Source of the DNA: Candidatus Moraniibacteriota bacterium
Lineage (GTDB): Bacteria > Patescibacteriota > Minisyncoccia > Moranbacterales > UBA1568
Length of the DNA: 64,000 bases
NCBI GenBank assembly: GCA_013336285.1
Contig: JAAXTX010000002.1
Coordinates: forward strand, 13,730 to 77,729
Direction: 5' to 3'
Positions 2,755 through 61,930 of this stretch are shown here, one piece after another. Made by a program: the position numbers and the translations under genes. The first letter of the stretch is position 1. Each line of letters starts with the position of its first letter. A model generated the notes under the pieces. The model was not told where the DNA came from and did no database searches. It was given only the letters and a program-made list of their open reading frames with translations.

Positions 2755-2762
2755 GCAGAGAA

Positions 2763-2830
2763 TTATTGCAAATTCTCCACCAGATACGCCCGCAATTCAG
2801 AAATCGGAATGCTGATTTTGTCCCGTAAAT
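2763..2830 (-). pseudogene. Orphan duplicate of the glyQS 3' terminus (encodes ...ISIPISELRAYLVENLQ*)
   Basis: About 55 bp similar to glyQS 3582-3650, with a 23-bp perfect core ATTCTCCACCAGATACGCCCGCA. It translates in frame to a variant of the GlyRS C-terminus (IRIPVSELRAYLVENLKK). Confidence 0.6.
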
Positions 2831-5115: not shown

Positions 5116-7830
5116 TTACCGAAGTCGACGTTTCCGCGCCTCCTCAAAGAAGAAGACCAACGCGGTGAAGCACCATGCGACGACCCAGTCTATCCGTTCG
5201 ATCGGCGCCATACCGAGGGCACTCTGAAGAAACGGGATACGGGTGAAAGCGAACAACATTCCAATCGAGATCCCCATACCGACGAAGACCATCGGATTCG
5301 AAAAGAAGGGCATCCCGAAGAACGAACGGGATTCGCTTCTCGATTGCAAGAGGTTCGCCATCTGGGTCAAAGCGAGCGTTACGTACGTCGCGGTCGTCGC
5401 ATGCCGATACAGCGGACCGACAGGATCGAGCTCCTCTCCGTATGACCATCCTTCACGGATAAGCACCATGAGGAACGCGACGACTCCGCCGATCGCCATG
5501 ATCGCCCCGATGGAAAGTAATCGGATTACGCCGCGCATATCCATGATTTTCCTTCCCATGGCCGGCGAAGAATGACTCTTCGAATCCGGCTCTTCCGGCT
5601 CTACGCCGAGTGCGAACGATGGGAATACGTCCGTCGCAAGATCGATCGCAAGAATCTGTACCGCCGAGATCGGAGACGGTATGTGCAGGAGAAACCCGAG
5701 CAGGACCGTAAAGAGTTCGCTCGCATTCGAGGTGAAGACGTAGTGAGTGAACTTACGCAGGTTCTCGAAAATTCTTCGTCCTTCCCGGACCGCGCCGACG
5801 ATCGACGCAAAATGATCGTCCAAAAGAATCATGTCCGCCGCATCCTTGGACACGTCGGTGCCAGTAATGCCCATCGCTACCCCGATATCGGCCTTTTTAA
5901 GCGCCAATGCGTCATTCACTCCGTCTCCCGTCATCGCGACCACCTCCCCCCCGGACTGAAGGACCGTCGCTAGACGGAGCTTCTGTTCCGGTGCGATCCG
6001 TGCGAACACGGCGCCTTTTCTCGCAGCTGCCAGGACCGCCTCATCGGACAATGTTTCAAGGGTCGTCCCGTTCACCGCGATCGGATCCATGCGTTCGGAA
6101 AAAAATCCCGCCTTCTGCGCGATTGCCTTGGCCGTCGTCTCATAATCGCCCGTCACCATGACCACGGACACGCCGAGCTGTCGGCATTCCGCTATCGCCT
6201 CGCGAATACCCTCGCGCGGCGGATCGATCATCGCGGTCATTCCGACCCAAACGAGTTGTCGTTCGGCTTCCTCCGGATACGCGTTCTCCGTCACACCGTC
6301 CAGATCACGATATGCGAAGCCGAGCACGCGGAGCGCTTGCCCGGATAACTCATCATAGATGGCTTTCACACTTGCCTTATCCGCAGGAGTAAACGGTTTC
6401 CTGACGTCCCCGTCAAACCATTCCGTCGAAAGCTCGAGTAATACCTCGGGAGACCCCTTCACATACGATCGTGTTTCGGCATTGTCATAGATGACGCTCA
6501 TCCGACGACGTTCGGACTCGAACGGGTTCTCGGCGATCTTCCGATATCCGATCTCGAAGAAATCAGGGCGCGCGTTGAATTTTCTCGCGGCGACGATGAG
6601 AGCTCCCTCGGTGGGATCGCCGGTCACGATGAACCGTCCATCCGTTTTCGAAAGGGACGCGTCGTTACAGAGCGTGCAGATACGGAATAACATCTCGGCG
6701 CCGGGAATACCCGATGGATTCACGAGTTTGCCGTCGTGAGAGAAATCTCCTTTCGGTTCATAGCCGACCCCGGATATGTCATATCGATCCGTCCCTATGA
6801 CGACTTCGGTCACCGAAAGCTCGTTCTTGGTGATGGTGCCCGTCTTGTCGGTACAGACAAAAGACACGGAACCGAGCGTCTCTACCGCGGACAATTTCTT
6901 GGCAAGGACGTTTTTCTCGAGAAGCCGCTTCATACCGAGCGCGAACGAGACCGAGAGCGCCGCCGGGAGCCCCTCCGGAACGACCGACACCGAAAGGGCA
7001 AGCGCGAGCAGGAGCGACTGATACAGCGGCATATGCTGATAGTGGCCGATCATGATGACGATGCCGCCGATTGAAACGGAAAGAAGCGCCACGCCGTGGC
7101 CGAATCGTTCCATCTTCTTCTGCAAAGGAGTCTGGGCCTGTTTGATCCCGTGCGTAAGTTCCGCCATGTGGCCGAGTTCCGTCGCCGAGCCGGTCCCGAA
7201 TATCACGACACGGGCTTCACCCGACGAGACCGACTCCCCCATGAAGACGAGGTTCTCTATGTCGCTCCGCGCTACCGTTCCGGACATCGCTCCGGTAACG
7301 CGTTTCTCCGGCACGGATTCTCCCGTAAAAATAAAACTGTTCACCTTGAAGTTGTACGCTTCGAGCACATAAGCATCGGCAGGCACGCTCGAGCCGGCAT
7401 CAAGGAACACGATATCACCCGGAACGAGGTCGGTGACGGGAATCTCGTGTTTCTCTCCGTCACGAATGACCGTCGCGGTATCGGCGATGAATGTAGCAAG
7501 TTTCTCGATTATCCGCTCCGCCTTATATTCCTGAAAGAAACCGATCAGGGCGTTGGTGAGGATGATTATCGCGATAATATTCGCATCGCGCGTCTCGCCA
7601 AGCACGAGCGCCGCCACGCCGGCCACGGCGAGAATCCAGACGAATACGTCGTTGAACTGCTTCAGCAGAAGCTTGGATGCGACAAAACGGCGTTTTGTCT
7701 CGAGGGAATTCTTCCCATGCACCCTGAGCCGGGCTGCAGCTTCCGCGCCTGTGAGCCCGTTCGCGGATGTCCGCAATTTACCAAGCATTTCGACGGCGGA
7801 AAGCCGGTAGAAAGGTTTTTCTGCTTCCAT
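5116..7830 (-). CDS. Cation-transporting P-type ATPase (Ca2+/Mg2+-type, P2)
   Basis: 904 aa with the phosphorylation motif CTDKTGTIT, the hinge motif MTGDGVNDALALKKADIGVAMG and about 10 transmembrane segments. Confidence 0.9.
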   Translation of the reverse strand: MEAEKPFYRLSAVEMLGKLRTSANGLTGAEAAARLRVHGKNSLETKRRFVASKLLLKQFNDVFVWILAVAGVAALVLGETRDANIIAIIILTNALIGFFQEYKAERIIEKLATFIADTATVIRDGEKHEIPVTDLVPGDIVFLDAGSSVPADAYVLEAYNFKVNSFIFTGESVPEKRVTGAMSGTVARSDIENLVFMGESVSSGEARVVIFGTGSATELGHMAELTHGIKQAQTPLQKKMERFGHGVALLSVSIGGIVIMIGHYQHMPLYQSLLLALALSVSVVPEGLPAALSVSFALGMKRLLEKNVLAKKLSAVETLGSVSFVCTDKTGTITKNELSVTEVVIGTDRYDISGVGYEPKGDFSHDGKLVNPSGIPGAEMLFRICTLCNDASLSKTDGRFIVTGDPTEGALIVAARKFNARPDFFEIGYRKIAENPFESERRRMSVIYDNAETRSYVKGSPEVLLELSTEWFDGDVRKPFTPADKASVKAIYDELSGQALRVLGFAYRDLDGVTENAYPEEAERQLVWVGMTAMIDPPREGIREAIAECRQLGVSVVMVTGDYETTAKAIAQKAGFFSERMDPIAVNGTTLETLSDEAVLAAARKGAVFARIAPEQKLRLATVLQSGGEVVAMTGDGVNDALALKKADIGVAMGITGTDVSKDAADMILLDDHFASIVGAVREGRRIFENLRKFTHYVFTSNASELFTVLLGFLLHIPSPISAVQILAIDLATDVFPSFALGVEPEEPDSKSHSSPAMGRKIMDMRGVIRLLSIGAIMAIGGVVAFLMVLIREGWSYGEELDPVGPLYRHATTATYVTLALTQMANLLQSRSESRSFFGMPFFSNPMVFVGMGISIGMLFAFTRIPFLQSALGMAPIERIDWVVAWCFTALVFFFEEARKRRLR

Positions 7831-12329: not shown

Positions 12330-12878
12330 CTACAGCAAGCCGAGATAATCGAGACCGAGATACCCGACATTGACGTCGGTCAACTGTCCTGAACGGAGAT
12401 GTGTGCGAAACTCCGACAATGTCATCAATACCGCCTCCACATTCTCCCCATTGTCTTCCAAGCGCGGCTCGGCAATTTTTTCACAATCCGTTACGACGAA
12501 CGCATGCCTCCGGGACGACGCGTATGCATCCACCAGCAATGTTGCGACATATTGAAGCGTACCTCGATATCCGGTCTCCTCCAATAGCTCACGCGCCACA
12601 GCGACCTCCGGAGTTTCCCCTTCCTTCGCGCTGCCGCCCGGAAGTTCACACACGACCTTGGCCGGACCGGGCCTGTATTGTCTCGCGAGAATGACTTTTC
12701 CGTCCTTCGTCATCGGCAGACAACAGATCGGGTCATGCCCTCCCTGCAGATAGAAATCCGTCTCTCTCCCATCAGGGAGTCGGAACATCACCTTCTCAAT
12801 CACCCGACTGTATTTCCGAAAGACCTCTTCCCGGGAAAGTTCTTTCCATGGTTGAACTTTATCCATATTGATATTCAC
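12330..12878 (-). CDS. NUDIX hydrolase (ADP-ribose pyrophosphatase-like)
   Basis: NUDIX box GGSAKEGETPEVAVARELLEETG. Confidence 0.85.
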   Translation of the reverse strand: MNINMDKVQPWKELSREEVFRKYSRVIEKVMFRLPDGRETDFYLQGGHDPICCLPMTKDGKVILARQYRPGPAKVVCELPGGSAKEGETPEVAVARELLEETGYRGTLQYVATLLVDAYASSRRHAFVVTDCEKIAEPRLEDNGENVEAVLMTLSEFRTHLRSGQLTDVNVGYLGLDYLGLL

Positions 12879-12914: not shown

Positions 12915-13424
12915 TCAATTGAGAAACTTTATAATTTTCTCAACTGACTCCCCTATCGGCTTTGCCGTATCTAACAAGAGTTTCTTTCCCGGCATCAATC
13001 CATAATCAAATATATCCTCGAAAAAAGTTCTCTCCGTGCCATGATATGCCTCATGCCGAGGACGGCTGACAAACCTCCGCTTTCGTTCTTCTTCGTCCAC
13101 CCGACACACAATCACTCTTACATCCCGCCCCTCAGTCACCCATTTTACGAATTGTTCTACATTGTCCGGATGATTGAACGTCGACTCGATGATAATATCG
13201 GTTCCGTTCTTCATTGCGTCATCCGCCAAAGCGATGAGGAGTCGTATCGAATGAAATCCGATCTTCCGACTATCATCAAGACTCATTCCGTTCAGATACC
13301 CATGCAAACGCTTCTTGACCGCATCCTTATGCAAGCAGAATATGTTCATCTGACACGAAACCTCGGTCGCGAGAGTCGTCTTCCCCGAACCGGGTAAACC
13401 ACAAAATACGATGACCCTGTTCAT
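12915..13424 (-). CDS. P-loop NTPase/kinase (AAA_33-like), paralog 2
   Basis: 169 aa with GLPGSGKTT and a conserved ...VCR(I/V)DE(P/E)ER(E/K)RRF.SR.RH.A.H..ER.F..DFDY..M block shared with paralog 1. It overlaps the ileS stop by 4 nt. Confidence 0.7.
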   Translation of the reverse strand: MNRVIVFCGLPGSGKTTLATEVSCQMNIFCLHKDAVKKRLHGYLNGMSLDDSRKIGFHSIRLLIALADDAMKNGTDIIIESTFNHPDNVEQFVKWVTEGRDVRVIVCRVDEEERKRRFVSRPRHEAYHGTERTFFEDIFDYGLMPGKKLLLDTAKPIGESVEKIIKFLN

Positions 13425-16400
13425 ACATTCCGTTTGAGTGCGAAGGAAAACATCCCCCCCTCTATCTTCGCGATCTCGCGATAGTCCGCATCCGCTATAT
13501 CGCCGCGAACGACTTCGGTCGCAAGTGTCTCGCGCGCGATCTCATCCCCGAATCCGTTCACCTCGACATCTCCGTCGAAGACCCGCTCCTTCCCCACGAT
13601 ACCGAGCGTGATCCTATCACTCACCTCGAATCCGGCTTTCTTGCGCCCTTCCTGGATCGCCCGAATGATTTCCCGTGCCTCGCCTTCGAGTGCGAGCTGT
13701 GGGGTGATTTCGGTATCCAATGCGATATCTTCGACCGTGGAACCGTCGAAACAGACTCCTTTAACATTGAGCTCCTCGAAAATGATCCGCTCCAAGAACA
13801 ATCTATCCTGAGAATCCGAGACGGCATCGAAAAGTTCCTGGTATTTCTCGCTTTTCAGCCGGATCTCGTTCAGAGGTTGCCGTACCTTGATTTTCGCCTC
13901 GGCACGTTTCTGAAGTCCTGAGCTGACAATCTCTCTCACCTGACTCATCATCACATTTAGCTTTTCATCAATTTTTCCTTCATCCGTTTCCGGCCACTCG
14001 GCAAGATGGACCGACCCGGGAACATCCTTAGATTCCGGGTCAAGCCCGGAATGACAATTCATAAGGTTCAGATAGATCTCCTCGGAAATGAACGGGGTGA
14101 ACGGTGCCATGAGCTTCGAGAGCGTGACGAGTACCTCGTAGAGCGTCGCATAGGCGGCGTCCTTGTCTCCGTCGTTCTCGTTCTTCCAGAAGCGCTTCCG
14201 ATTCCGGCGGATATACCAGTTCGACAGTTCATCGATGAACGATTCGATCTTGGCCGTCGGCGAATACAGGTCGTACGACGCGAGTGCCTCATCGACCTCG
14301 CGGACCAGCGCCTGCAGTTCGGACAAAATCCAGCGATCGAGGATATTCTCGGATTTCTTCGCATCCTTCCTTGGTTCCCACCCGTCGATCGACGCGTACG
14401 TCGTGAAGAACGAATACGAGTTCCAGAGCATCCGGAAGATGCGGTTCATCACGTCGCGCATCCCTTTCTCGTCGAACCGTTTCGGCAGTCCCGGCTGGTT
14501 GATGGAATACAGATACCACCGCAGCGCGTCCGCCCCGTATTTCTCGAACATCTCGAACGGATCCACGACGTTCCCCTTGGACTTGGACATCTTCTTTCCC
14601 TTCGCATCGAGGACGTGTCCCAGACAGACGACGTTCTGATACGCGTTTCCTTCGCGCACGACTCCCGCCTTGTGAAGCAAGGTCGCGATCGCGTGCAGCG
14701 TGTAGAACCACCCGCGGGTCTGATCGATCGCCTCACTGATATAATCAGCCGGGAAGTACTTCCCTTCGCCGATCCCGTTTTTCTCCTCGTCGGTCGCGCT
14801 TGCGGGAAATCCGAACTGCGCCAAGGGCATCGCTCCGGAATCGAACCACACGTCGAGCACCTCGGGTGTCCGTTTCATCGCCCCCTTCCCGCATTCGCAC
14901 GGCCACCATACTTCATCGATATACGGCTTGTGTAGGTCTTCCGGTTTCTTTCCGGACAGTTCCTTAAGTTTCGCTTTCGAATCGACAACCATCCTATGCC
15001 CACACCCGGTGCATTCCCATACCGGAATCGGCGTCCCCCAATATCGGTCGCGCGAGATCGCCCAATCCTTCGCCCCCTTGAGCCACTCCCCGAAACGGCC
15101 TTCCTTGATGTGCTCCGGCACCCAAGCTATCGACTCGGCATTCTGCGTAAGCTCCTCACGGACCGTGCTCATCGCGATAAACCACGACGGCTTCGCATAA
15201 TAAATCAAAGGCGTATCACACCGCCAGCAATGCGGATACTCATGCTCGTATACTTCTTCACGTAAGAGCAATCCGCGCTCACGGAGATCCGCGACGACGA
15301 GTTCGTCCACGGCAGACTTGTTCTTGTCATTCTTTTTCTTGACCGGCATACCGGCCCCGGGAAACCCTTTCAGCATCTTTCCCTCGAGGTCCACCGTGTG
15401 AAGTGTGGGAAGTCCGTTCGCCCGTGCAAGCTCCGCGTCATCCTCACCGAATGCCGGCGCGATATGCACGATGCCGGACCCGTCATCGGTCGTCACGAAG
15501 CCCGCCGCATATACTTTCCAGGCGTTCTCCAGGTTTTCATCCGCACCTTCAGCCGTTCCTTGGAACAATGGCTCATACGCGACTCCGACCAACTTCCCGC
15601 CAAGCACTGTCTCGTTCACTGTGAAAGCATCGGGTGATACGGCATCTTTCCGACCCGAGGCCATAATGAGATTTTCCGATACCGACTCGGCACCCTCGGC
15701 TGTGCCGGGCGCCGCGACCGTCCCCACCACGTATTCGATATCCCCGTTCACGGCAAGCGCGACATTCCCCGGAAGCGTCCACGGTGTCGTCGTCCACGCG
15801 ACGAGATACGTTCGGTCATCGGCAGTGAATGCGCCGATCTTCTGACCGGGCTTCACCCGGAATTTCACGAATGCGGAAGTATCCTTCACGGTCTGATATC
15901 CCTGAGCTACCTCGTGCGAGGAGAGCGCTGTCCCACACCGGTAGCAATACGGCACGACCTTATGCCCCCGATAGAGGAGATCGTTCCCGTTCGTATCCTT
16001 CTGTTCCGCGATCTTCGAGAACTGCCACCAGACCGATTCGATATAGCTATCCTCATAGGTGACATACGGATGTTCCATATCCACCCAGTACCCCATACGC
16101 TTCGTGAGCTTCTCCCACAGATCCCGATACTCCCAGACGGATTCTTTGCACTTACTATTGAACTCGATGACACTCGCGCGCGTATCGCCCGGCACGATGT
16201 TCTCGATATCCTGCTTATTCCTGAGTCCGAGCGCCTTTTCCACCTGGAGCTCGACCGGCAATCCGTGCGTGTCCCATCCGGCCTTGCGGCGAACACGATA
16301 ACCCTTCATCGTCTTGTAACGCGGCACGGCATCCTTGAACGATCGGGCAAGCACATGGTGCAAGCCCGGCTTCCCGTTGGCCGTCGGCGGTCCCTCATAA

Positions 16401-16528
16401 AAGACGAAGTCTCCTTTCGGCGCATCCTTCTCGACGGACTTCCTAAAGATATCGTTCGCGTCCCAATACGCGAGAATTTCTTCCTCCATCTTCGGGAAAT
16501 CGGATTTGGGGTCGATTTTTCTGATCAT
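13421..16528 (-). CDS. ileS: Isoleucyl-tRNA synthetase
   Basis: 1035 aa with the HIGH-type motif PPTANGKPGLHHV, KMSKS as KMSKSKGN, and editing and anticodon-binding regions. Confidence 0.95.
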   Translation of the reverse strand: MIRKIDPKSDFPKMEEEILAYWDANDIFRKSVEKDAPKGDFVFYEGPPTANGKPGLHHVLARSFKDAVPRYKTMKGYRVRRKAGWDTHGLPVELQVEKALGLRNKQDIENIVPGDTRASVIEFNSKCKESVWEYRDLWEKLTKRMGYWVDMEHPYVTYEDSYIESVWWQFSKIAEQKDTNGNDLLYRGHKVVPYCYRCGTALSSHEVAQGYQTVKDTSAFVKFRVKPGQKIGAFTADDRTYLVAWTTTPWTLPGNVALAVNGDIEYVVGTVAAPGTAEGAESVSENLIMASGRKDAVSPDAFTVNETVLGGKLVGVAYEPLFQGTAEGADENLENAWKVYAAGFVTTDDGSGIVHIAPAFGEDDAELARANGLPTLHTVDLEGKMLKGFPGAGMPVKKKNDKNKSAVDELVVADLRERGLLLREEVYEHEYPHCWRCDTPLIYYAKPSWFIAMSTVREELTQNAESIAWVPEHIKEGRFGEWLKGAKDWAISRDRYWGTPIPVWECTGCGHRMVVDSKAKLKELSGKKPEDLHKPYIDEVWWPCECGKGAMKRTPEVLDVWFDSGAMPLAQFGFPASATDEEKNGIGEGKYFPADYISEAIDQTRGWFYTLHAIATLLHKAGVVREGNAYQNVVCLGHVLDAKGKKMSKSKGNVVDPFEMFEKYGADALRWYLYSINQPGLPKRFDEKGMRDVMNRIFRMLWNSYSFFTTYASIDGWEPRKDAKKSENILDRWILSELQALVREVDEALASYDLYSPTAKIESFIDELSNWYIRRNRKRFWKNENDGDKDAAYATLYEVLVTLSKLMAPFTPFISEEIYLNLMNCHSGLDPESKDVPGSVHLAEWPETDEGKIDEKLNVMMSQVREIVSSGLQKRAEAKIKVRQPLNEIRLKSEKYQELFDAVSDSQDRLFLERIIFEELNVKGVCFDGSTVEDIALDTEITPQLALEGEAREIIRAIQEGRKKAGFEVSDRITLGIVGKERVFDGDVEVNGFGDEIARETLATEVVRGDIADADYREIAKIEGGMFSFALKRNV
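14041..14066. repeat. REP-like palindrome copy inside the ileS coding sequence (in-frame, encodes CHSGLDPE)
   Basis: GATTCCGGGTCAAGCCCGGAATGACA is the reverse complement of the 2283-2305 element. Confidence 0.55.
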
Positions 16529-16694
16529 ATGTTTGATATCAATAGAATTATATGACGATTGCTATGACACGAAAACCTCTCATTTCCCAAAGCTACGGAT
16601 GGCGCCACCCTTGATTATCACTCTCTTGCAAAATACCATCCCAACCACACATACAGCTTATTTCAAGAATAAGCATGCCCCTTCAAGCCTAACC

Positions 16695-16927: not shown

Positions 16928-17037
16928 GTTTGAAAACTTACGGCTGCTGGTCTATGATCGGCAGTTTTTTTATTCCAGTATCTTAAAAGGCAAGTCCTCT
17001 TTTGGAAATCCGTCTTCGGATCGATCTTTCTGATCAT
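16924..17037 (-). pseudogene. Orphan duplicate of the ileS 5' terminus (MIRKIDPKTDFQK... followed by out-of-context sequence)
   Basis: About 40 bp at 16998-17040 match the ileS start region 16488-16530 at about 82% identity, with shared TTTCTGATCATAT. The first 13 codons match IleRS MIRKIDPKSDFPK. Confidence 0.5.
16941..16971 (+). terminator. Intrinsic terminator (hairpin CGGCTGCTGG...CGGCAG followed by T7)
   Basis: Imperfect stem followed by TTTTTTT, immediately after the small ORF. Confidence 0.4.
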
Positions 17038-17048
17038 ATTCGATTCGA

Positions 17049-21849: not shown

Positions 21850-22246
21850 GGGGTTGTTTAGTTTCGACAGCGAGTTCATTCAGAACCTGCAAGCCGATGA
21901 TGGGGAGTCATCGTAAAAAATCCCCACACACGATATCTGCCAACATCGTATCAAAGGTGAAGATGGCGTTCGCTAACGCGTTCTCCCCGTCTTTCGCTTC
22001 AGCTCTCGCCTAAGGGCGTGAGCCATCGGACCCCCGATGTCTGATAGGGGTCATCCGGTGTCATATCATCAGACGGACCGACAGGAGTCTTTCCTCCATT
22101 CACTTCGTCGGCCCGGCATGAAAAGAGGCCCTGGGAAGGTTTCCGTCCGCCTTTCCGCTTTCCGGGGAACCAAAGGCTGACTATGCTTGTAGACGGTTTT
22201 GGAAAAACCCGTTTGGACATGGGTGCGATTCCCATCAACTCCACAC
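21850..22246 (+). ncRNA. ssrA: tmRNA (ssrA)
   Basis: The 5' end GGGGTTGTTTAGTTTCGACAGCG matches the tmRNA 5' consensus GGGGCUGAUUCUGGAUUCGACGGG. The 3' end has the T-arm GGGTGCGATTCCCAT and the acceptor strand CAACTCC+A pairing with GGGGUUG, including the G3:U pair. An internal in-frame tag reading frame ...AFANAFSPSFASALA* ends about 21960-22012. It sits immediately downstream of smpB. Confidence 0.7.
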
Positions 22247-55729: not shown

Positions 55730-56578
55730 TTATCTATACCCCGCCAGGACTTCCTGGAACGCCTCTTCGGAAAATTCCCGTTTATAGGGCGGAACCTCGC
55801 CGATACCAAGGCGATCCTCGTACAGCTCGCGCGAATCGTTGCGATAGATGACACCGAGCGGAAGCTTGTCGGTCTCGAGCGCAAGCTGAAACGCCGCCAC
55901 GCGATCGGTCGGATCGTAGTTCTCCGATACCGGATGCGTGTGTTCCTTGAACCACTGATAGGTATTCGTCTTGTTGAACACGACGCACGGCACGAAAAGA
56001 TCAACCATCGAGAATCCCTTGAAAGAAATCGCCTGTTTGATGATATCCTTTGCCTGGGCGACATCACTCACGTTCGCGCGTGCGACGAACGGCACGTCGA
56101 CCGAAATGGCGACCGCCATGGGATTGAACGGTTCGACGATCACCCCGTCCGGCTGGATCGGGTTCTTCATCCCTTCCTCCGATGTCGGTGATGCCTGCCC
56201 CTTCGTGAGACCGTACACCATGTTGTTGTGCACGAGGACGGTAATATCGGGATTGCGACGCGCGACATGTAACAGATGATTGCCGCCCTCCCCGTAAATA
56301 TCGCCATCACCCGATTCCGCGATGACGGTCAGGCTCCGGTTCGCAAGCTTGATTCCCATCGCCGTTGGAATGGAACGTCCATGCAGTCCGTTGAACATGT
56401 GCGCATCGACATACTGCGGCATCTTGGCCGCCTGGCCGATGCCGGACGCGATGACGACTTCCTTCGGGTCCTTACCGAGGTCACGAAGCGCCATCTTGAG
56501 GATATTGAGAAGCGGAAAATTTCCGCATCCCGGACACCAGGCGATGTCAGTATCCTGAGGCATATCGAAGGGAAGCAT
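55730..56578 (-). CDS. korB: 2-oxoacid:ferredoxin oxidoreductase beta subunit (TPP-binding)
   Basis: DIAWCPGCGNF and the TPP motif GDGD....GGNH. The start is assigned to MLPFDMPQ..., and the longer listed ORF reads through the minisatellite. Confidence 0.85.
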   Translation of the reverse strand: MLPFDMPQDTDIAWCPGCGNFPLLNILKMALRDLGKDPKEVVIASGIGQAAKMPQYVDAHMFNGLHGRSIPTAMGIKLANRSLTVIAESGDGDIYGEGGNHLLHVARRNPDITVLVHNNMVYGLTKGQASPTSEEGMKNPIQPDGVIVEPFNPMAVAISVDVPFVARANVSDVAQAKDIIKQAISFKGFSMVDLFVPCVVFNKTNTYQWFKEHTHPVSENYDPTDRVAAFQLALETDKLPLGVIYRNDSRELYEDRLGIGEVPPYKREFSEEAFQEVLAGYR

Positions 56579-56590
56579 AGGGTTATGAGT

Positions 56591-56622
56591 CAAAAGTGAA
56601 AAGTCGAAAGTCCATCGAGTCC
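56591..56622. repeat. GACTTTCGACTTT minisatellite copy in the korA-korB junction
   Basis: CAAAAGTGAAAAGTCGAAAGTCCATCGAGTCC. Confidence 0.6.
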
Positions 56623-56636
56623 GTATCATCAAACGT

Positions 56637-58349
56637 CTACGCTTCGGGTTCGAGCTCGTCCATAAGTTCCTCGACACAGAACGGTTCCCCGGTCGACTTG
56701 AGAATGCGCCGCGAGACCTTCACGCCCAATTCACGGACCAGCAGATCGGCGAACTGTCCCGAATGATTGTTCTCGACGACTATGATCCGTTTTCCCGAGA
56801 GTAACGTTTCCACGGCCGGATTGATCGGAAAGACCTGTGAGAAATGCAGTCCGCCGAGCTTGCGGCTTCCAAGTCTGGTGAGCGATTCCTCCACCACGCC
56901 ACGATTGGAACCCCAGGATACGACAGCCGTCTCGGCCCCTTCTAAATTATCAAATGCGTGCGGAATCACCGCCTCATCGCGAAGCGCGTCGAGCCTCCGG
57001 GACCGCTTGTCCATCATCGCGCGACGCACCTCGAAACTCTCTGTGATATGTCCGCTCTCGTCGTGCTCGTCCGAATCCACACAGACCAGCCCATCCCCGT
57101 ATCCGGGTACACCGCGTGGTGAAAGCCCGTCCGTAGTCAGCGCGTAGCGGAGATATTCCGCCTGAGTCTTCACGATGTTGCGGCGTATCGGCAAACGGAC
57201 GATTTCTTTCGAATCGATCGTTGAAACCGCATCGAGGAAATACTGGTCCGACAAGATGAAAACCGGAATCTGATACGCGTCCGCCGTATCGAACGCCCGC
57301 TCCATGGACCCGATCGCCTCAGCCGGATTTCCCGGCGCGAATATCGCGCGGGAAAATTCCCCGTGCCCCGAGTAGAGCGCGAGATTGAGATCCCCCTGTT
57401 CCGTCCGTGTCGGAAGTCCGGTCGCGGGTCCCGGCCGCTGTCCGATATGGATCACGATAGGCGTCTCTATCATGCCGGCCAGACTCACTCCTTCCTGCAT
57501 GAGATCGAATCCGCCACCGGATGTCGTCACCATGGCCCGTGCACCCGCATACGAAGCACCGAGCCCCGCGTTAATGGCGGAAATTTCGTCCTCCGCCTGA
57601 TCAACCACTATGCCGCAACGTTTCGCGTTCTGCGCAAGAAATGCCAACACGCCCGTAGCGGGCGACATTGGATATGAGGAAATGAAATCACACCCGCCCG
57701 CAATCGCCCCGATGCCGAGTGCCGTCGTTCCATCCACCAGGAGATCGTCTTTCTTGCCGTCATCCGGAACGAGCGGTACTTCTATATTCTCCGCGTACGC
57801 CGCGTGTTTCCCGAACGCGTGCCCTTTCCGGAGTGCCTCGATATTTTTTTCGACAATGTCGTCACCTTTTCTCGAAAAGACTTTCGTAAGATACGTTTCC
57901 GCCTCCTCGGACGGTATTCCTATCACTCCGAGTATCACTCCGAGCGCCGCCGAATTCGCGTAGATGGGATTTCCACCCGCTTCCATCGCGAACCGAAGCA
58001 TGGGCGTATCGATGAATCTGCATATCCCGCCCATATCAGCGCTCGCTTTCTCGGCAAAAACGGTAGTTCCCTCGCCGATACGCCACCGCAGGTGTTCGAG
58101 CGCCGGCGCGTCCAGTGCGAGCAGAAAATCGATTCGGCGGATATAGGCCCTGCGCGGGACCCTGGCAGAGGAGAGTCGGATTTGCACGGAATTACTGCCT
58201 CCACGGACCCGGGACATATACTCCTTGCACGCGGACACGCCATATCCGGCGTCTTTCAGGATACGGACCAATGCAGCCTCGACGGTCTGAACCCCCTGCC
58301 CGGCAGCTCCCCCGACAACTATTGAAATATCTTTGGAAAACTTCGGCAT
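56637..58349 (-). CDS. korA: 2-oxoacid:ferredoxin oxidoreductase alpha subunit with fused N-terminal gamma domain
   Basis: 570 aa with the N-terminal GGAAGQGV gamma-type motif followed by alpha-subunit domains. Confidence 0.85.
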   Translation of the reverse strand: MPKFSKDISIVVGGAAGQGVQTVEAALVRILKDAGYGVSACKEYMSRVRGGSNSVQIRLSSARVPRRAYIRRIDFLLALDAPALEHLRWRIGEGTTVFAEKASADMGGICRFIDTPMLRFAMEAGGNPIYANSAALGVILGVIGIPSEEAETYLTKVFSRKGDDIVEKNIEALRKGHAFGKHAAYAENIEVPLVPDDGKKDDLLVDGTTALGIGAIAGGCDFISSYPMSPATGVLAFLAQNAKRCGIVVDQAEDEISAINAGLGASYAGARAMVTTSGGGFDLMQEGVSLAGMIETPIVIHIGQRPGPATGLPTRTEQGDLNLALYSGHGEFSRAIFAPGNPAEAIGSMERAFDTADAYQIPVFILSDQYFLDAVSTIDSKEIVRLPIRRNIVKTQAEYLRYALTTDGLSPRGVPGYGDGLVCVDSDEHDESGHITESFEVRRAMMDKRSRRLDALRDEAVIPHAFDNLEGAETAVVSWGSNRGVVEESLTRLGSRKLGGLHFSQVFPINPAVETLLSGKRIIVVENNHSGQFADLLVRELGVKVSRRILKSTGEPFCVEELMDELEPEA

Positions 58350-58530
58350 ACTTTATATTCATTCGGTATTTTATACAGTATACCACGGGAAGGAATCATC
58401 CGGACGACAAAAGATACGAACAAGCGGTCGATAGTCATGCCAGGATGAAATTGCGAAAAAACGACAAGCGATCAACCCCGTCAACGGCATCCCTTACGCC
58501 TTCGATGACTTGCGAAACCACAGACGCTCA

Positions 58531-58607
58531 AAAAATGTTGTCCTCGCTTTCCAGTTTTTTCTTCACGATCTCGAACTCATTCTCGGCTTCCTTGAGTTTC
58601 TCAAAAT
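58531..58607 (-). pseudogene. Orphan duplicate of the xseB 3' terminus (encodes ...EKLKEAENEFEIVKKKLESEDNIF*)
   Basis: About 57 bp match 60024-60085 with 4 mismatches, with perfect cores ATCTCGAACTCATTCTCGGC and TCCTTGAGTTTCTC. It is in frame with a diverged XseB C-terminus. Confidence 0.6.
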
Positions 58608-58625
58608 GAAATGGCAACTACTCTT

Positions 58626-59732
58626 CTACTTCGATATGGCCATACCGCCTTCTTCAACTTCCGAAGAAATTACCTCATACGTTTCCGGATTGTAGTAGAT
58701 CCGATCATATATCTCAAACGGACGGCCGATAAATCCTCCGTTCTTTTCTGTCGCGATATTCAGATCCCACTTATCATAATACGATATGTAATGCCCTTTC
58801 TTATCTTCTCCGAGAGTGATCGTGAAACGCCCCATTACCCTAGAGAAATCGTCGACGAACAACTCATTTCCACCACCCTCTTTCAGTTCTGATACCAAGT
58901 CGCTTACCGTTTGTTTTTCAAACAGTTTTGGAAAAAAATCAACGATTTTGTAATAATATTTATCCACGTCAGATCGAGCCGGTTTGTGATCCGAGATCCC
59001 GAAAGTTCCATGTTTCTGAGAAAGACCAAGGTAGAGCCTCCACGCATCATAGCGTTCCGGTCCCTGCTTTTCATAGAATGTCGACGCGCCCATTACCAAA
59101 TTATCGAGAAACAACATAGAATGAGCTTCGCTAAAATAGGTTACCGGGCGAATACTTCTCTCAACCAGTTCACTGAGACCGAACTTGTATACCGACCGCT
59201 GTTCCTCTGTTATCCCTTCTTCAAACATTTCCGATCTCGCACGATCGCGCTCAGCGAACTTTCCATCCGCTTTCTGCATAACGTTCACACCAGTGAAATA
59301 TGCCCCGTAGAGAGGAAAAAGACTCACGAATCCGACCATGACCCGATTCATGATTCGATCAACCTTCTCTCGGTGTTTCTTGATTTCTTTTCCATAGAGC
59401 CTCGCTCGCGCTTCAATTAACTCCCGCTCTTCCTGAACTTCAGGATGCCTCTCGAGTTCGGAAATCTGAAATTCGACAACATCGGAAAGTCGGCTGGCGG
59501 GATGCCTCTCAAGCCATGAGACAAGATTAGCTCTGAGTGTCGCGACCTGGTTCGAATCATCCGAAGATGGCACACAATCATCGAGCTCTCGCCAGTCCCC
59601 GATTACCTTCGCCGCTTCCAGCATCCTTTCACTGATTTTCTTATCAAAATTCTCTTGCCGTTCCGGAAAATCCTCCTGCGGAACACTGGGTTTTTCCGGT
59701 ACAGCAAGAGACGGCATAAACGATTCCTTCAT
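58626..59732 (-). CDS. Hypothetical protein, cargo of the low-GC insert at the xseB 3' end
   Basis: 368 aa, lower GC than neighbours, no motif recognised. Confidence 0.5.
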   Translation of the reverse strand: MKESFMPSLAVPEKPSVPQEDFPERQENFDKKISERMLEAAKVIGDWRELDDCVPSSDDSNQVATLRANLVSWLERHPASRLSDVVEFQISELERHPEVQEERELIEARARLYGKEIKKHREKVDRIMNRVMVGFVSLFPLYGAYFTGVNVMQKADGKFAERDRARSEMFEEGITEEQRSVYKFGLSELVERSIRPVTYFSEAHSMLFLDNLVMGASTFYEKQGPERYDAWRLYLGLSQKHGTFGISDHKPARSDVDKYYYKIVDFFPKLFEKQTVSDLVSELKEGGGNELFVDDFSRVMGRFTITLGEDKKGHYISYYDKWDLNIATEKNGGFIGRPFEIYDRIYYNPETYEVISSEVEEGGMAISK

Positions 59733-59734
59733 AC

Positions 59735-59890
59735 TTATTCCTTATCATTCGTTTCCTCAGTGCTATCACGACACGCCTCCCTAAAATCGGTCTCAACCTC
59801 TGCGATAGATTCTTCAAATTCGGAAAAAAGGTCTCGTATTTTTTGCTCTGCCTCTTTCCGTTCTTTGTCCGTGAGTTCCGATTTGTTCAT
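59735..59890 (-). CDS. Possible small acidic protein (51 aa) coupled to the 368-aa cargo gene
   Basis: MNKSELTDKERKEAEQKIRDLFSEFEESIAEVETDFREACRDSTEETNDKE. Its stop is 2 nt before the next ATG. Confidence 0.3.
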   Translation of the reverse strand: MNKSELTDKERKEAEQKIRDLFSEFEESIAEVETDFREACRDSTEETNDKE

Positions 59891-60008
59891 AAAACACGTA
59901 GTATCTTCTTCGCAAAACTTATTTCCACACTCACTTATTCTGATCCTTCCTTTGGCAAGAAAGAAAAACTAATCTTTGCACTACCCTCTCCTTTCTACCT
60001 CCTACTCC

Positions 60009-60221
60009 CTATTCCTCCCCTTCCAGTTCCTTCTTCACTATCTCGAACTCATTCTCGGCCTCCTTGAGTTTCTCGCGGCTTTCCTTCACGAGTACCGCAC
60101 CTGCTTTCACCTTCGCGAGCCCCTCCTCGACATCTACCTCCTCTTGACTCTCGAACCAGGCGACGATTTCCTCCAATTTCTTCAGCGACTCCCCAAGCGA
60201 CTGCTTCTTTTCCTGTGGCAT
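60009..60221 (-). CDS. xseB: Exodeoxyribonuclease VII small subunit
   Basis: 70 aa with LEEIVAWFESQEEVDVEEGLAKVKAGAVLVKESREKLKEAE, the XseB coiled-coil pattern. Confidence 0.8.
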   Translation of the reverse strand: MPQEKKQSLGESLKKLEEIVAWFESQEEVDVEEGLAKVKAGAVLVKESREKLKEAENEFEIVKKELEGEE

Positions 60222-60291: not shown

Positions 60292-61836
60292 CTATCTGTT
60301 CACTGACTTCACTTCCGCTGAAAGCGATCCGTCCGACAACCTGATATTCAGTTCTTCCCCGACGGAGACATCGCCGACCTTCGAGAGCACCTTTCCTCCG
60401 GCCCGAACAATGGCGTAGCCGAGGGAAAGCACTCGGTTAGGGTCATACTGACGAAGCGCTCCTTCTGCCCTAGAAAGCCGTTCCCGAACATCTTTGGCAG
60501 CACTCTTCCAGCCATCGCCGATCCGTCGTGTCGAGTCCTCAAGAAGAGACGAGGACTCTCGCAGCCGGTACTCGATGACCGATAATTTCGAATAAAGCGC
60601 GTTCGTTACCCGCTCGAACCGGTCGGAAACGCCCTCAAGAAAGGCAAGAAAAGTCGAGACACTTTTTTCGAGCCGATCGGAGGATTCGGAAAGCGCGCGT
60701 TCGAAAGAAGAAACAATGGCTCGCTCGCTTTGGACGAGCGTCTGACGTGCCGAATCCCACGGCTCCCGGATAGTACGTGCGACCGCGGTCGGAGTCGAGA
60801 CCATTCGGTCCGCCACGAGTGCGGCCAGGGTCACGTCCTTCTCATGACCTATGCCGGCGATTACCGGCATCTCGCATTCGGAAATTTCACGGACAAGCGA
60901 CTCCGTATTGAACGCCTGCAGACTTTCGATACTTCCGCCGCCGCGAATGATGACCAGGATATCGTATGAATCCGCCTTCGACCGGAAATATCGGATTGCT
61001 TTCAACACGTCGAACACGGCTCTTTTCCCCTCGACACTCGACGGATAAAGGTCGATCCGGATACCCAGCCTTCCGAGATTCGTCAGGAAATCGCCGATTG
61101 CGGCACCCTGTTCCGAAGTGATAAGAGCGATACACTCTGGAAATTCCGGGAGCTTCCGCTTCCGTTCCGGCGCGAAGATACCTTCCGATTCGAGCTTTCG
61201 ATACAGCGCGTCGTAAGCCTTCTTAAGCGCGCCCTCTCCCGCGATCTCAATGACACCGACCTTGAGTGACAGCCTGCCCATCGGCTTCCATATTTCCGGA
61301 ACGCCCTCGACGATCACGTCATCCCCTTCCTTGAGACGCACTCCGGAGACGTCGTATTGCCATCGGAACATGAGGCAGTTGATCATGCTCTGATCTTCCG
61401 GATCCTTAAGGGAAAAGTATACGACCCGTTCGCGCTCATCCACTGAAGATACTTCCCCGCGGATTCGGGCGGCCATACCGGAAAGCTCCGTATTGAGTCC
61501 GTCGAGGAATCGGCTCACGGACAATATGTCGTCTTCAGTCGGTGAAACCGTTTCCGACATATTCGAAAAATCAGATCGCATCCCGACGGGCTCCGACACA
61601 GGCATCATTCCGGTTCCAGATCCGGCACGCGCGACGATTTCCAGAATCGCCTTCCCATACTGGCGACACTTCGCATCCTTGATTCCCTTCACCTCCATGA
61701 GCTCACCCGATGTCGACGGCTTCCTTGCGGCTATGCCGTCGAGCGCGGCATTCGTAAGCACGCGAAACGGCTCAACGCCTTCTTTCGAAGCCTGTTTCGC
61801 CCGCCACATCCGTAACAAAGAGGAAAGATCCGCCAT
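60292..61836 (-). CDS. xseA: Exodeoxyribonuclease VII large subunit with an N-terminal HRDC-like extension
   Basis: The OB-fold and catalytic core (...IALITSEQGAAIGDF...IIRGGGSIESL...AGIGHEKD...) are preceded by about 70 aa resembling an HRDC domain (EPFRVLTNAALDGIAARKPSTSGELMEVKGIKDAKCRQYGKAILEIV). Confidence 0.8.
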   Translation of the reverse strand: MADLSSLLRMWRAKQASKEGVEPFRVLTNAALDGIAARKPSTSGELMEVKGIKDAKCRQYGKAILEIVARAGSGTGMMPVSEPVGMRSDFSNMSETVSPTEDDILSVSRFLDGLNTELSGMAARIRGEVSSVDERERVVYFSLKDPEDQSMINCLMFRWQYDVSGVRLKEGDDVIVEGVPEIWKPMGRLSLKVGVIEIAGEGALKKAYDALYRKLESEGIFAPERKRKLPEFPECIALITSEQGAAIGDFLTNLGRLGIRIDLYPSSVEGKRAVFDVLKAIRYFRSKADSYDILVIIRGGGSIESLQAFNTESLVREISECEMPVIAGIGHEKDVTLAALVADRMVSTPTAVARTIREPWDSARQTLVQSERAIVSSFERALSESSDRLEKSVSTFLAFLEGVSDRFERVTNALYSKLSVIEYRLRESSSLLEDSTRRIGDGWKSAAKDVRERLSRAEGALRQYDPNRVLSLGYAIVRAGGKVLSKVGDVSVGEELNIRLSDGSLSAEVKSVNR

Positions 61837-61867
61837 AGAAAAGAGAAATTTAAATTGACAATCACGG

Positions 61868-61930
61868 ATTACGGACACGCTACATTGCCGAACGACTTAA
61901 TATACTTTCGACTTTCGGACTTGGGGACTC
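61868..61930. repeat. GACTTTCGACTTT / TTACGGAC minisatellite copy upstream of xseA
   Basis: ATTACGGACACGC...ATACTTTCGACTTTCGGACTTGGGGACTC. Confidence 0.6.

What the first reader, a model, noticed from the sequence alone, without database searches (positions are those of the whole stretch)
58531..60085. Low-GC two-gene cargo inserted at the 3' end of xseB, flanked by a duplicated XseB C-terminal coding segment
The last ~57 bp of xseB (60024-60085 plus the stop at 60009) recur at 58531-58607 with only 4 mismatches, with perfect cores ATCTCGAACTCATTCTCGGC and TCCTTGAGTTTCTC. The orphan translates as ...EKLKEAENEFEIVKKKLESEDNIF* versus the intact ...EKLKEAENEFEIVKKELEGEE*. The ~1.4-kb insert has lower GC and encodes a 51-aa acidic peptide and a 368-aa protein of unknown function, apparently translationally coupled.

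Together with the glyQS and ileS cases, this points to a family of small integrative cargo elements that target gene termini and regenerate the target gene end.
Basis: seen in the sequence. Interest (0 to 1): 0.8.

Follow-up and report, generated by a model that had tools for sequence, protein, structure and literature searches.

The report
Gene cassette with displaced xseB end
A foreign-looking two-gene cassette of unknown function sits just after the DNA-repair gene xseB in an uncultivated Moranbacteria genome and is followed by a leftover copy of the last 62 bases of xseB; related genomes show this is a recurrent way in which these bacteria add genes next to conserved genes without breaking them and without any visible integrase.

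Summary
Window 58541-58602 repeats 60013-60074, the last 20 codons of xseB, at 56/62 identity and 1472 nt spacing. It is the strongest self-match in the 64 kb (E=5e-17).

The 1.4-kb segment between the copies has 45% GC against 55-58% in the flanks. It carries a tightly coupled 51-aa acidic ORF and a 368-aa ORF.

In about 17 related Moranbacteria loci the xseB-korA gap is a cassette hot spot:
- Four genomes have it empty.
- Others hold at least five unrelated cargoes.
- Five species-level loci carry an xseB-tail orphan after the cargo.
- One genome (L002) has two stacked cassettes, each followed by its own orphan, with the newest next to xseB.

In L002, L012 and L015 the orphan runs on into native xseB 3' UTR. 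It is therefore the displaced original gene end.

Orphan boundaries differ between cassettes. No cassette encodes a recombinase. The 2-gene cassette tree conflicts with the host tree.

korB (related genomes), glyS and ileS (this window) show the same gene-end duplication.

Best reading: recombination-driven terminal displacement, either homology-facilitated illegitimate recombination or a Campbell-type crossover on the conserved gene end. This is not an integrase-borne element. The cargo belongs to a large uncharacterised Patescibacteria family, probably envelope-associated.

I rate it a new variant of a known kind, of moderate interest.

The parts
60292..61878 (-). xseA (exonuclease VII large subunit, 528 aa), upstream conserved gene
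   Evidence: Pfam Exonuc_VII_L 1e-67, HRDC, OB fold. Syntenic in 10 or more related loci.
60009..60221 (-). xseB (exonuclease VII small subunit, 70 aa), intact target gene
   Evidence: Pfam Exonuc_VII_S 4e-08. 82-99% identical to XseB of related Moranbacteria.
60013..60074 (-). Intact copy of the repeat: the last 20 sense codons of xseB and the first two bases of the next codon upstream (stop at 60009-60011)
   Evidence: the repeat finder D1; alignment A1.
59891..60008 (-). 118-nt purine-rich leader between the xseB stop and the 51-aa ORF
   Evidence: 95-98% identical to L001, although xseB is only 73% identical at nucleotide level. The jump in identity falls at the stop codon. It resembles the native xseB 3' UTR of relatives in its first ~25 nt. 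No significant fold.
59735..59890 (-). 51-aa acidic helical ORF, first gene of the cargo
   Evidence: pI 4.4, 18 D+E. No family hit. A small ORF of 49-56 aa precedes every homologue of the 368-aa gene examined.
58626..59732 (-). 368-aa ORF, second gene of the cargo. N-terminal helices, hydrophobic helix 131-149, conserved alpha/beta C-terminal domain (~159-350)
   Evidence: 83 homologues, all Patescibacteria hypotheticals. 1708 representatives in the 1.84-billion-protein library. AF2 model pLDDT 78. No Pfam, NCBIfam, PDB or BFVD match. Rare fusions to CarboxypepD_reg and Peptidase_M64.
58541..58602 (-). Orphan copy of the xseB tail. The ORF-like remnant runs on to about 58531.
   Evidence: 56/62 identical to 60013-60074. 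No start codon context and an in-frame stop just upstream. Orphans with the same left boundary occur in L001 and L002.
58462..58483 (-). Terminator-like hairpin followed by a T run, downstream of the orphan
   Evidence: Consensus scan only.
58376..58385 (-). TGGTATACTG, an extended -10-like motif upstream of korA
   Evidence: T(G/C)(G/C)TATACT(G/A): TATACT and the flanking T invariant at this position in all 7 aligned loci, the three other positions each varying in one or two loci (alignment A4). A promoter role is inferred.
56637..58349 (-). korA-like 2-oxoacid:ferredoxin oxidoreductase alpha subunit, downstream conserved gene
   Evidence: Pfam POR_N 3e-52 and POR 5e-29. Syntenic partner of xseB in relatives.

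Best explanation
The xseB-korA junction of this Moranbacteria clade is a hot spot where accessory gene cassettes are added by the host's own recombination. The very conserved 3' end of xseB serves as the homology.

Incoming DNA carrying 'xseB end + cargo' recombines homologously in xseB. Its other end is joined inside the resident xseB tail, about 66 nt before the stop for this cassette. This could happen by homology-facilitated illegitimate recombination, or equivalently by a Campbell-type single crossover of a circular [tail + cargo] molecule.

The gene keeps a complete end. The resident end is pushed downstream as a non-coding orphan.

Repeating the process stacks cassettes, with the newest next to xseB. 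The direct repeats also allow later loss or exchange of cassettes.

The cargo here is a two-gene operon: a 51-aa acidic helical protein plus a 368-aa, probably membrane-anchored, protein with a conserved and probably extracytoplasmic domain. It belongs to a large, uncharacterised, Patescibacteria-wide family and plays no evident part in its own insertion.

Shown: the duplication, the hot spot, the empty sites, the stacking, continuity of the orphan with native 3' UTR, cassette-host tree conflict, and absence of recombinase domains in the cassettes.

Inferred: the recombination pathway (HFIR or Campbell), DNA entry by transformation, and the cellular role of the cargo.
For: 1. Repeat of 62 nt at 90% identity, E=5e-17.

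2. Hot spot. The synteny up408-xseA-xseB-[variable]-korA-korB holds across relatives. The gap is empty in L013, L016, L018 and L092. It holds the 51+368 aa pair (window, L001, L002), a methyltransferase (L015, L082-85, L002), a 335-aa ORF (L012), 443/429-aa ORFs (L009, L086-88), 206+226 aa (L089) and 198+193 aa (L011).

3. Orphans follow the cargo in the window, L001, L002 (two), L012 and L015/L082-85. Scores are 49-132 against a background of 39 or less.

4. Stacking in L002: xseB | MTase | orphan | 53+371 aa | orphan | 168-aa gene.

5. The orphan is the displaced native end:
- L002 orphan 2 plus its downstream sequence is collinear with the intact tail, UTR and hairpin CCCGCCCGGTCTTCGGACCAGGGCGGG of L011.
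- The L012 and L015 orphans keep the native purine-rich UTR.
- The L015 and L002 intact tails have different ends that adjoin the MTase.

6. Boundaries vary between cassettes, and the L012 duplication crosses the stop codon. This is expected for homologous or illegitimate joints and not for a fixed att core.

7. No recombinase, transposase or nuclease domain in any cassette protein.

8. Horizontal movement. xseA nucleotide identity is 70% for window-L001 and 77% for window-L002. The 368-aa gene is 89% and 76.5% respectively. Identity to L001 jumps from ~80% to 95-98% at the xseB stop.

9. The same signature occurs at other conserved gene ends: korB tail in L011 and L013, glyS tail and ileS head in the window. 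All three window inserts have 41-45% GC.

10. Published precedents for the mechanism:
- HFIR displacement producing orphan arrays (PMC5361080, read).
- Rhs C-terminal displacement, cited in that paper.
- An integrase-less island moving through short direct repeats (PMC5426353).
Against: - No junction read, circular form or experimental datum shows the pathway.
- For the window itself the spacer between orphan and korA does not align with empty-site relatives. That the orphan is the native end is shown for L002, L012 and L015 and extended to the window by analogy.
- The left boundary of the orphan (-66) is the same for the 2-gene cassette in three lineages. This could mean one ancient event or a cassette-borne tail copy (an att-like sequence), not repeated illegitimate joints.
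- The orphans stay ~90% identical to the functional tail although they are non-coding. That requires either recent insertion or gene conversion, and neither is demonstrated.
- L009, L011 and L086-89 carry cassettes without a coding-tail orphan.
- A trans-acting recombinase elsewhere in these genomes was not searched for.
Confidence: 0.55

Rival explanations
1. A site-specific integrative cassette system. Each cassette carries an att-like copy of the xseB tail, and a recombinase encoded elsewhere in the genome (tyrosine, serine or Xer-like) inserts it into the xseB tail. This would resemble integron cassettes, or IMEX and pdif modules that use host Xer.
For: - Order of the array, with the newest cassette proximal and one repeat per cassette.
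- The same orphan left boundary for the 2-gene cassette in the window, L001 and L002, with a homologous spacer before it.
- The cassettes have no recombinase of their own, as in integrons and IMEX.
- The 36-nt core CTCAAGGAAGCCGAGAAYGAGTTCGAGATCGTGAAG is nearly invariant in the clade.
Against: - Boundaries differ between cassettes (-66, about -57, -95, and +30 past the stop in L012).
- Other duplicated targets (korB, glyS, ileS head, the L011 hairpin, the L019 115-nt repeat) share no sequence with the xseB tail.
- No attC-like or dif-like structure was seen.
- 62 more distant xseB loci scanned downstream have no orphan.
Confidence: 0.2
2. An unknown insertion process that makes long, variable target-site duplications of 40-135 nt. 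For example, foreign DNA could be captured at two staggered nicks or at a resected break, followed by fill-in. Both repeat copies would then derive from the recipient.
For: - In L002 the two orphans are 41/42 identical to each other, so the repeat was near-perfect when made.
- The orphan's 3' 20 nt is closest to its own genome's tail (16/20 and 14/20, against 7/20 between the window and L001 orphans).
- The L012 duplication includes UTR on both copies.
- Many kb-spaced direct repeats flank accessory genes in CPR loci. None of that kind was found in 100 kb of E. coli.
Against: - In L015 and L002 the intact tail's last ~24 nt differ clearly from the orphan's and are linked to the MTase. This fits a donor-supplied end better than a duplicated recipient end.
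- No known bacterial machinery makes such duplications.
- The sample is small.
Confidence: 0.12
3. Remnant of an old tandem duplication of xseB. The second copy decayed to a 3' stub, with unrelated genes later inserted between the copies.
For: Tandem duplicates decay to fragments. The orphan is in the same orientation and downstream.
Against: - Only the last 40-100 nt ever survive.
- The orphan always starts within ~25 nt of the cargo's stop codon.
- Each stacked cassette has its own stub (L002).
- The same pattern occurs at korB, glyS and the 5' end of ileS.
- Orphans are ~90% identical to the tail, with no trace of the rest of xseB.
Confidence: 0.04
4. A diversity-generating retroelement pair (template repeat and variable repeat at a gene's 3' end), or an assembly or collapse artefact.
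For: A near-identical repeat of a gene's 3' end within 1.5 kb resembles a DGR VR/TR pair.
Against: - No reverse transcriptase is present.
- Mismatches are not adenine-specific: three of seven have C in the orphan.
- There are three copies in L002.
- The structure was reproduced in independent assemblies from JGI, Logan, ENA and NCBI.
Confidence: 0.02

Closest known systems
C-terminal (sequential) displacement at Rhs, CDI and T6SS effector loci, proposed to occur by homology-facilitated illegitimate recombination (Kirchberger et al. 2017, PMC5361080; Jackson et al. 2009, cited there)
   Same: - A conserved upstream coding region acts as the homology anchor.
- The new module is inserted next to it.
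- The old 3' part is pushed downstream and kept as an orphan.
- Repeated events build an array with the newest module proximal.
- No integrase is involved.
- The resulting arrays are afterwards exchanged by ordinary homologous recombination.
   Different: - Here the anchor is a housekeeping gene (xseB, korB, glyS, ileS). The displaced piece is only the last ~20 codons and is functionally equivalent to the new one, so nothing is diversified in the anchor protein.
- The cargo is not a recognisable toxin-immunity pair.
- The host is a Patescibacteria lineage.
Integrase-borne elements that integrate into a gene end and supply a replacement end. From my own knowledge, not tested here: phage 21 and e14 in icd, many tRNA-targeting islands, ICEs in the 3' end of fda or the 5' end of prfC.
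   Same: The target gene stays intact because the insert brings a near-identical end. The displaced end remains as a pseudo-fragment at the far side. The result is a direct repeat of tens of nucleotides.
   Different: - Those elements are 10-100 kb and encode their own tyrosine or serine recombinase with a fixed crossover core.
- These inserts are 0.6-1.5 kb, hold one or two ORFs, have no recombinase, and have variable boundaries.
Integron gene cassettes and Xer-dependent modules (IMEX, pdif modules). From my own knowledge, plus the comparison drawn in PMC5361080.
   Same: Small promoter-less or self-contained cassettes of one or two genes. One repeat per cassette. Insertion at the proximal end of an array. 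The enzyme is not encoded in the cassette.
   Different: No IntI/attI/attC or dif-like site. The repeat is a piece of the neighbouring housekeeping gene and its length varies.
Integrase-less island that excises through short direct repeats (microcin H47 island of E. coli; Azpiroz and Lavina 2017, PMC5426353)
   Same: A small accessory segment flanked by short direct repeats, without a site-specific recombinase. Mobility is attributed to host functions.
   Different: That island is larger. Its repeats are not a duplicated gene end. No cassette stacking has been described for it.
Tn7-type targeting of the glmS 3' end (from my own knowledge)
   Same: It uses the conserved C-terminal coding sequence of an essential gene as a safe-harbour signal and inserts just downstream.
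   Different: It needs TnsABCD and makes a 5-bp duplication. There is no gene-tail copy, and no Tns genes are present here.

Membership tests
Integrase-mediated integrative element (prophage, genomic island or ICE that regenerates the target gene end) | Element-encoded tyrosine or serine recombinase | tested here: not met
   No recombinase domain in the 51-aa or 368-aa proteins or in six other cassette proteins (Pfam, NCBIfam, PHROGs, PADLOC).
Integrase-mediated integrative element (prophage, genomic island or ICE that regenerates the target gene end) | Fixed att core: repeats of the same extent at both ends for all insertions at the site | tested here: not met
   Orphan left boundaries are at about -66, -57 and -95. 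The L012 repeat runs ~30 nt past the stop.
Integrase-mediated integrative element (prophage, genomic island or ICE that regenerates the target gene end) | Target gene stays intact, with a displaced end left at the far junction | tested here: met
   xseB is intact (Pfam hit, full length versus relatives). The orphan lies at 58541-58602.
Terminal displacement by homology-facilitated illegitimate recombination (Rhs, CDI and T6SS type orphan arrays) | Conserved upstream coding region followed by orphaned 3' fragments, each starting inside the conserved region | tested here: met
   Orphans in the window, L001, L002 (two), L012 and L015.
Terminal displacement by homology-facilitated illegitimate recombination (Rhs, CDI and T6SS type orphan arrays) | The orphan is the former native end, contiguous with native downstream DNA | tested here: met
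   Met for L002 orphan 2 (collinear with the L011 tail, UTR and hairpin), L012 and L015. Inconclusive for the window itself, because the spacer does not align.
Terminal displacement by homology-facilitated illegitimate recombination (Rhs, CDI and T6SS type orphan arrays) | Variable 3' toxin domain plus cognate immunity gene as cargo | tested here: not met
   The displaced and new xseB ends are equivalent. The cargo has no toxin, immunity or defence match. The PADLOC AbiC hit (E=0.003) occurs in 1 of 46 family members.
Terminal displacement by homology-facilitated illegitimate recombination (Rhs, CDI and T6SS type orphan arrays) | One homologous and one illegitimate (microhomology) joint | not testable with these tools
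   This needs donor-recipient pairs from one population or an experiment. Only end products are visible here.
Integron cassette array | IntI integrase with attI, and attC (imperfect inverted repeats) after each cassette | tested here: not met
   The repeat after each cassette is a direct copy of the xseB coding tail. No integrase lies among the genes flanking the array. The whole genome was not searched.
Diversity-generating retroelement | Reverse transcriptase, and TR/VR differing only at TR adenines | tested here: not met
   No RT. The mismatches include C-to-A and C-to-G positions.
Toxin-antitoxin or abortive-infection module (for the cargo) | Recognisable toxin, antitoxin or Abi domain | tested here: not met

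The most novel reading that the evidence does not exclude
This Moranbacteria clade, and perhaps Patescibacteria more widely, may routinely capture accessory genes by an integrase-independent process. In it the end of a conserved gene acts as the attachment site and is copied at every insertion. That would give ordered cassette arrays, in effect an integron without an integrase. Each cassette's orphan gene end would then serve as a portable homology arm, letting the cassette enter any relative that has the gene, whatever lies downstream.
Probability: 0.25. Interest if true: 0.75.

Novelty: new variant of a known kind. Interest (0 to 1): 0.55.

Why it matters
Patescibacteria have tiny genomes, few classical mobile elements, and are thought to take up DNA readily. 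How they gain accessory genes is poorly described.

This locus and its relatives give a clean comparative series: empty site, single cassette, stacked cassettes. The series shows that genes are added at the ends of housekeeping genes without disrupting them and without an element-encoded recombinase.

If the process is systematic, three things follow:
- It would be a simple, general route of gene gain in reduced genomes.
- It would explain many short 'pseudogene' fragments of gene ends in CPR assemblies.
- It would provide a marker (gene-end orphans) for finding recently acquired cargo, including the large uncharacterised two-gene family found here.

It also suggests safe insertion sites for the genetic tools now being developed for these organisms.

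Tried and rejected
- **DGR:** rejected. No RT, and the mismatches are not A-specific.
- **Assembly artefact or low-complexity repeat:** rejected.
- **AbiC / abortive infection for the 368-aa protein:** the PADLOC hit (E=0.0027) is not reproduced in 45 other family members.
- **Sequence searches:** profile against PDB sequences, NCBIfam, PHROGs and Pfam on 46 members gave nothing. No phage homologue was found.
- **RNA explanations:** Rfam finds only a tmRNA elsewhere. The leader and the orphan-korA spacer fold no better than shuffles.
- **Flanking repeats around distant homologues of the cargo after ftsZ (L005, L007):** none found. The cargo is therefore not always repeat-flanked.
- **Exact look-up of the window's XseB for same-species variants:** not on record.
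- **Spacer alignment to reconstruct the exact pre-insertion site in the window:** the spacers are too diverged. Only the korA -10-like motif aligns.
- **Synonymous-site conservation of the xseB tail against the body** (identical-codon fraction 0.77 versus 0.60): judged inconclusive because the tail is rich in two-fold-degenerate K and E codons.
- **Chimeric-orphan test** (5' part cassette-like, 3' part resident-like): the 5' 42 nt are too conserved everywhere to discriminate. Only the 3' 20 nt are informative, and weakly so.
- **L001 as an independent downstream context:** rejected. Its downstream genes are an inverted up408 plus the HRDC part of xseA, so the different context comes from an inversion.
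Full report
**Source and gene order.** The window comes from a Candidatus Moranbacteria (Patescibacteria/CPR) metagenome-assembled genome. The 368-aa protein is 100% identical to NCBI 'MAG: hypothetical protein HGA31_00755'.

All genes around the finding lie on the minus strand:
- xseA, 60292-61878
- xseB, 60009-60221
- a 51-aa ORF, 59735-59890
- a 368-aa ORF, 58626-59732
- a 2-oxoacid:ferredoxin oxidoreductase pair, korA 56637-58349 and korB 55730-56677

Sources.

**The observation.**
- The repeat is 58541-58602 versus 60013-60074: 62 nt, 56/62 identical, spacing 1472 nt.
- The intact copy is the last 20 codons of xseB.
- The second copy begins 23 nt after the stop of the 368-aa ORF. It reads EKLKEAENEFEIVKKKLESEDNIF*, with an in-frame stop just before it.
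- It is the strongest self-match of the whole window (E=5e-17).
- In 62 more distant xseB loci scanned downstream, the best tail-versus-downstream score was 31 and the highest control score was 39. True orphans scored 49-132.
- The insert has 45% GC and GC3 of 0.42-0.49. The flanking genes have 55-58% GC and GC3 of 0.62-0.72.
- The two ORFs are separated by 2 nt here and overlap by 4 nt in relatives.

One correction: there are six mismatches in 62 nt, not four.

**Relatives with the same cassette.**
- L001 (JGI; 368-aa protein 88% identical) has xseB, a 51-aa ORF, a 370-aa ORF and an orphan tail at the same 1472-nt spacing.
- L002 (Logan; 71% identical) has xseB, a SAM methyltransferase, a ~40-nt orphan tail, 53-aa and 371-aa ORFs, a 70-nt orphan tail, and then a 168-aa gene.

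In L002 each cassette is followed by its own copy of the xseB tail, and the extra cassette lies next to xseB.

**The hot spot.** I fetched further loci through XseA, XseB and exact-protein look-ups. They show a conserved order, up408-xseA-xseB-[variable]-korA-korB.

| State of the xseB-korA gap | Loci |
|---|---|
| Empty (100-240 nt) | L013, L016, L018, L092 |
| Methyltransferase plus orphan | L015 and four further assemblies, L082-85 |
| 335-aa ORF plus a 103-nt orphan that crosses the stop codon | L012 |
| 443/429-aa ORF | L009, L086-88 |
| 206+226 aa | L089 |
| 198+193 aa, each followed by the same 27-nt hairpin | L011 |

Sources for the table.

None of these proteins has a recombinase, transposase or nuclease domain. 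The methyltransferase ORF actually ends inside the orphan, read in another frame (...MSSRS*).

**Which copy is the original?**
- In L002, orphan 2 and what follows it are collinear with the intact tail, purine-rich 3' UTR and hairpin of L011.
- In L012 and L015 the orphan likewise runs into native-type UTR.
- The intact tails of L015 and L002 have different last codons that adjoin the methyltransferase.

So the orphan is the former gene end, and the present end arrived with, or was made at, the insertion. For the window itself the spacer between orphan and korA is too diverged to show this. Only a TGGTATACT -10-like motif aligns.

**Junctions.**
- The orphan starts at about -66 from the stop for the 2-gene cassette, with the same boundary and a homologous 23-30-nt spacer in three lineages.
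- It starts at about -57 for the methyltransferase and at -95 for the L012 cassette.
- The L012 duplication extends ~30 nt beyond the stop.

A fixed att core is therefore not supported.

**Horizontal movement.** By host genes L001 is the outgroup, but its cassette is the closest to the window's:

| Comparison | xseA nucleotide identity | 368-aa gene nucleotide identity |
|---|---|---|
| Window vs L001 | 70% | 89% |
| Window vs L002 | 77% | 76.5% |
| Window vs L015 | 83% | not applicable (L015 lacks this cassette) |

Along the window-L001 alignment, identity rises from ~80% in the xseB tail to 95-98% exactly at the xseB stop. It stays near 90% through the cassette and falls in the last 90 nt of the 368-aa gene.

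The orphans did not travel with this exchange. Their last 20 nt are lineage-specific: 16/20 to the own tail, 7/20 between the two orphans. The recent exchange is best read as allelic replacement between cassette-bearing lineages. L001's different downstream context is an inversion, not an independent insertion.

**Generality.** In the window:
- The glyS tail (3584-3645) recurs at 2762-2823, after a 235-aa ORF.
- The ileS head (16489-16530) recurs at 16998-17039, upstream of a 467-nt insert.
- Both inserts have 41% GC.

In relatives:
- The korB tail is duplicated ~1-1.4 kb downstream in L011 and L013. The L013 orphan has an in-frame stop.
- L019 has a MNT/HEPN pair between 115-nt direct repeats just after xseB.

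A 100-kb E. coli control run with the same settings gave only intragenic domain repeats, REP, rRNA and tRNA matches.

**The cargo.**
- The 368-aa protein belongs to a family with 1708 representatives at E<=0.001 in a 1.84-billion-protein library. Every named source is Patescibacteria, and there is no Pfam domain.
- Homologues at other sites (after ftsZ in L005 and L007, after an HD gene in L003) are always preceded by a 49-56-aa helical ORF.
- The AF2 model (pLDDT 78) has N-terminal helices, a long helix containing a hydrophobic stretch (131-149, Kyte-Doolittle 1.56), and a confident alpha/beta C-terminal domain rich in invariant Tyr, Trp and Asp.
- Nothing in PDB or BFVD resembles it.
- Rare fusions to CarboxypepD_reg-like and Peptidase_M64 domains suggest an extracytoplasmic location.
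- I commit, at low confidence, to a membrane-anchored envelope protein with a small cytoplasmic partner. A defence or toxin-antitoxin role is neither supported nor excluded.

**Mechanism.** The anatomy matches what has been proposed for Rhs, CDI and T6SS orphan arrays. A conserved stretch of incoming DNA anchors by homology. The heterologous end is joined illegitimately. The old 3' part is kept downstream (PMC5361080).

A Campbell-type single crossover of a circular [tail + cargo] molecule gives the same product. It would explain the constant boundary of the 2-gene cassette. Integrase-less islands that move through short direct repeats are documented (PMC5426353).

I cannot separate these variants, nor exclude a trans-acting recombinase or a process that makes long target duplications. 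The confidences in the Rival explanations section reflect this.

**Verdict.** The 'integrative element family' is better described as recombination-driven terminal displacement at cassette hot spots next to conserved genes. That makes it a new variant of a known kind, in a phylum where gene gain is little understood. The cargo is a large protein family of unknown function.

Noticed in passing
window 2762-2823 vs 3584-3645; ORF 2860-3567 (-): The last ~60 nt of glyS (…IPVSELRAYLVENLKK*) recur downstream of a 235-aa ORF that has no family match. The orphan reads DKISIPISELRAYLVENLQ*. The insert has 41% GC. The architecture is the same as at xseB.
   Followed up: partly
window 16489-16530 vs 16998-17039: The 5' head of ileS (MIRKIDPKSDFPK) is duplicated 509 nt upstream (MIRKIDPKTDFQK). 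The 467-nt insert (41.5% GC) holds a ~50-aa signal-peptide-like ORF on the opposite strand (MKKFIVSAPLVGMLAFLGLVVAAEG...). Here the duplication is of a gene start, not a gene end.
   Followed up: partly
window 14031-14057 and 2279-2305 (inverted); related copies near 2700-2900: A 27-nt perfect hairpin element, TTGTCATTCCGGGCTTGACCCGGAATC, lies in frame inside the ileS coding sequence (…NCHSGLDPESK…). It also lies between a 176-aa ORF and a GIY-YIG gene (2355-2663). Similar 'CHPGL/PGLDPGS' copies flank the glyS orphan.
   Followed up: partly
L011 12292-12366 vs 13279-13352; L013 10983-11061 vs 12341-12419: The korB 3' tail (…AFQE(L/V)(L/I)AGYR*) is duplicated 1-1.4 kb downstream in two related genomes. 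The L013 orphan carries an in-frame stop, and the cargo there is a 374-aa AAA-ATPase-like ORF. No korB orphan was found in the window.
   Followed up: partly
L019 5267-5380 vs 6296-6410: A MNT/HEPN-type pair (94 aa and 132 aa, judged from motifs) lies just after xseB between 115-nt direct repeats that are 96% identical. The repeats contain a GAGACGCCCCGGCGGGGCGTCTC palindrome.
   Followed up: no
L015 6260-6307 vs 6701-6748 (also L082-84): xseA carries an in-frame ~147-aa insertion between the HRDC and OB domains. It has a Pfam DUF559 (Vsr-like endonuclease) hit and is flanked by 48-nt direct repeats. In L001 the same linker is an inversion breakpoint that splits off the HRDC domain.
   Followed up: no
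L011 8291-8317, 8900-8926, 9616-9642; L002 7259-7285; L012 6606-6631: A GC-rich hairpin, CCCGCCCGGTCTTCGGACCAGGGCGGG, follows xseB and then each of the two cassettes in L011, in identical copies. In L011 the repeated unit is the terminator-like 3' UTR and not the coding tail.
   Followed up: partly
L003 3907-3929, 5923-5945, 6824-6846; 2115-2173 vs 3262-3320: In a Paceibacterota contig that carries a distant homologue of the two-gene cargo, 23-59-nt intergenic direct repeats flank several small gene groups. One group is HD + 53 aa + 306 aa; another is acetyltransferase + YunG.
   Followed up: no
L011 7562-7993, L012 4751-5164, L086 4052-4465, L092 4274-5014: The xseA-xseB junction is also variable. 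Some relatives have a 137-143-aa ORF or a 246-aa ORF of unknown function there. The window has none. No flanking repeat was detected.
   Followed up: no
window 21850-22246 (+): tmRNA gene (Rfam 122 bits; ARAGORN tag peptide ANIVSKVKMAFANAFSPSFASALA*).
   Followed up: no
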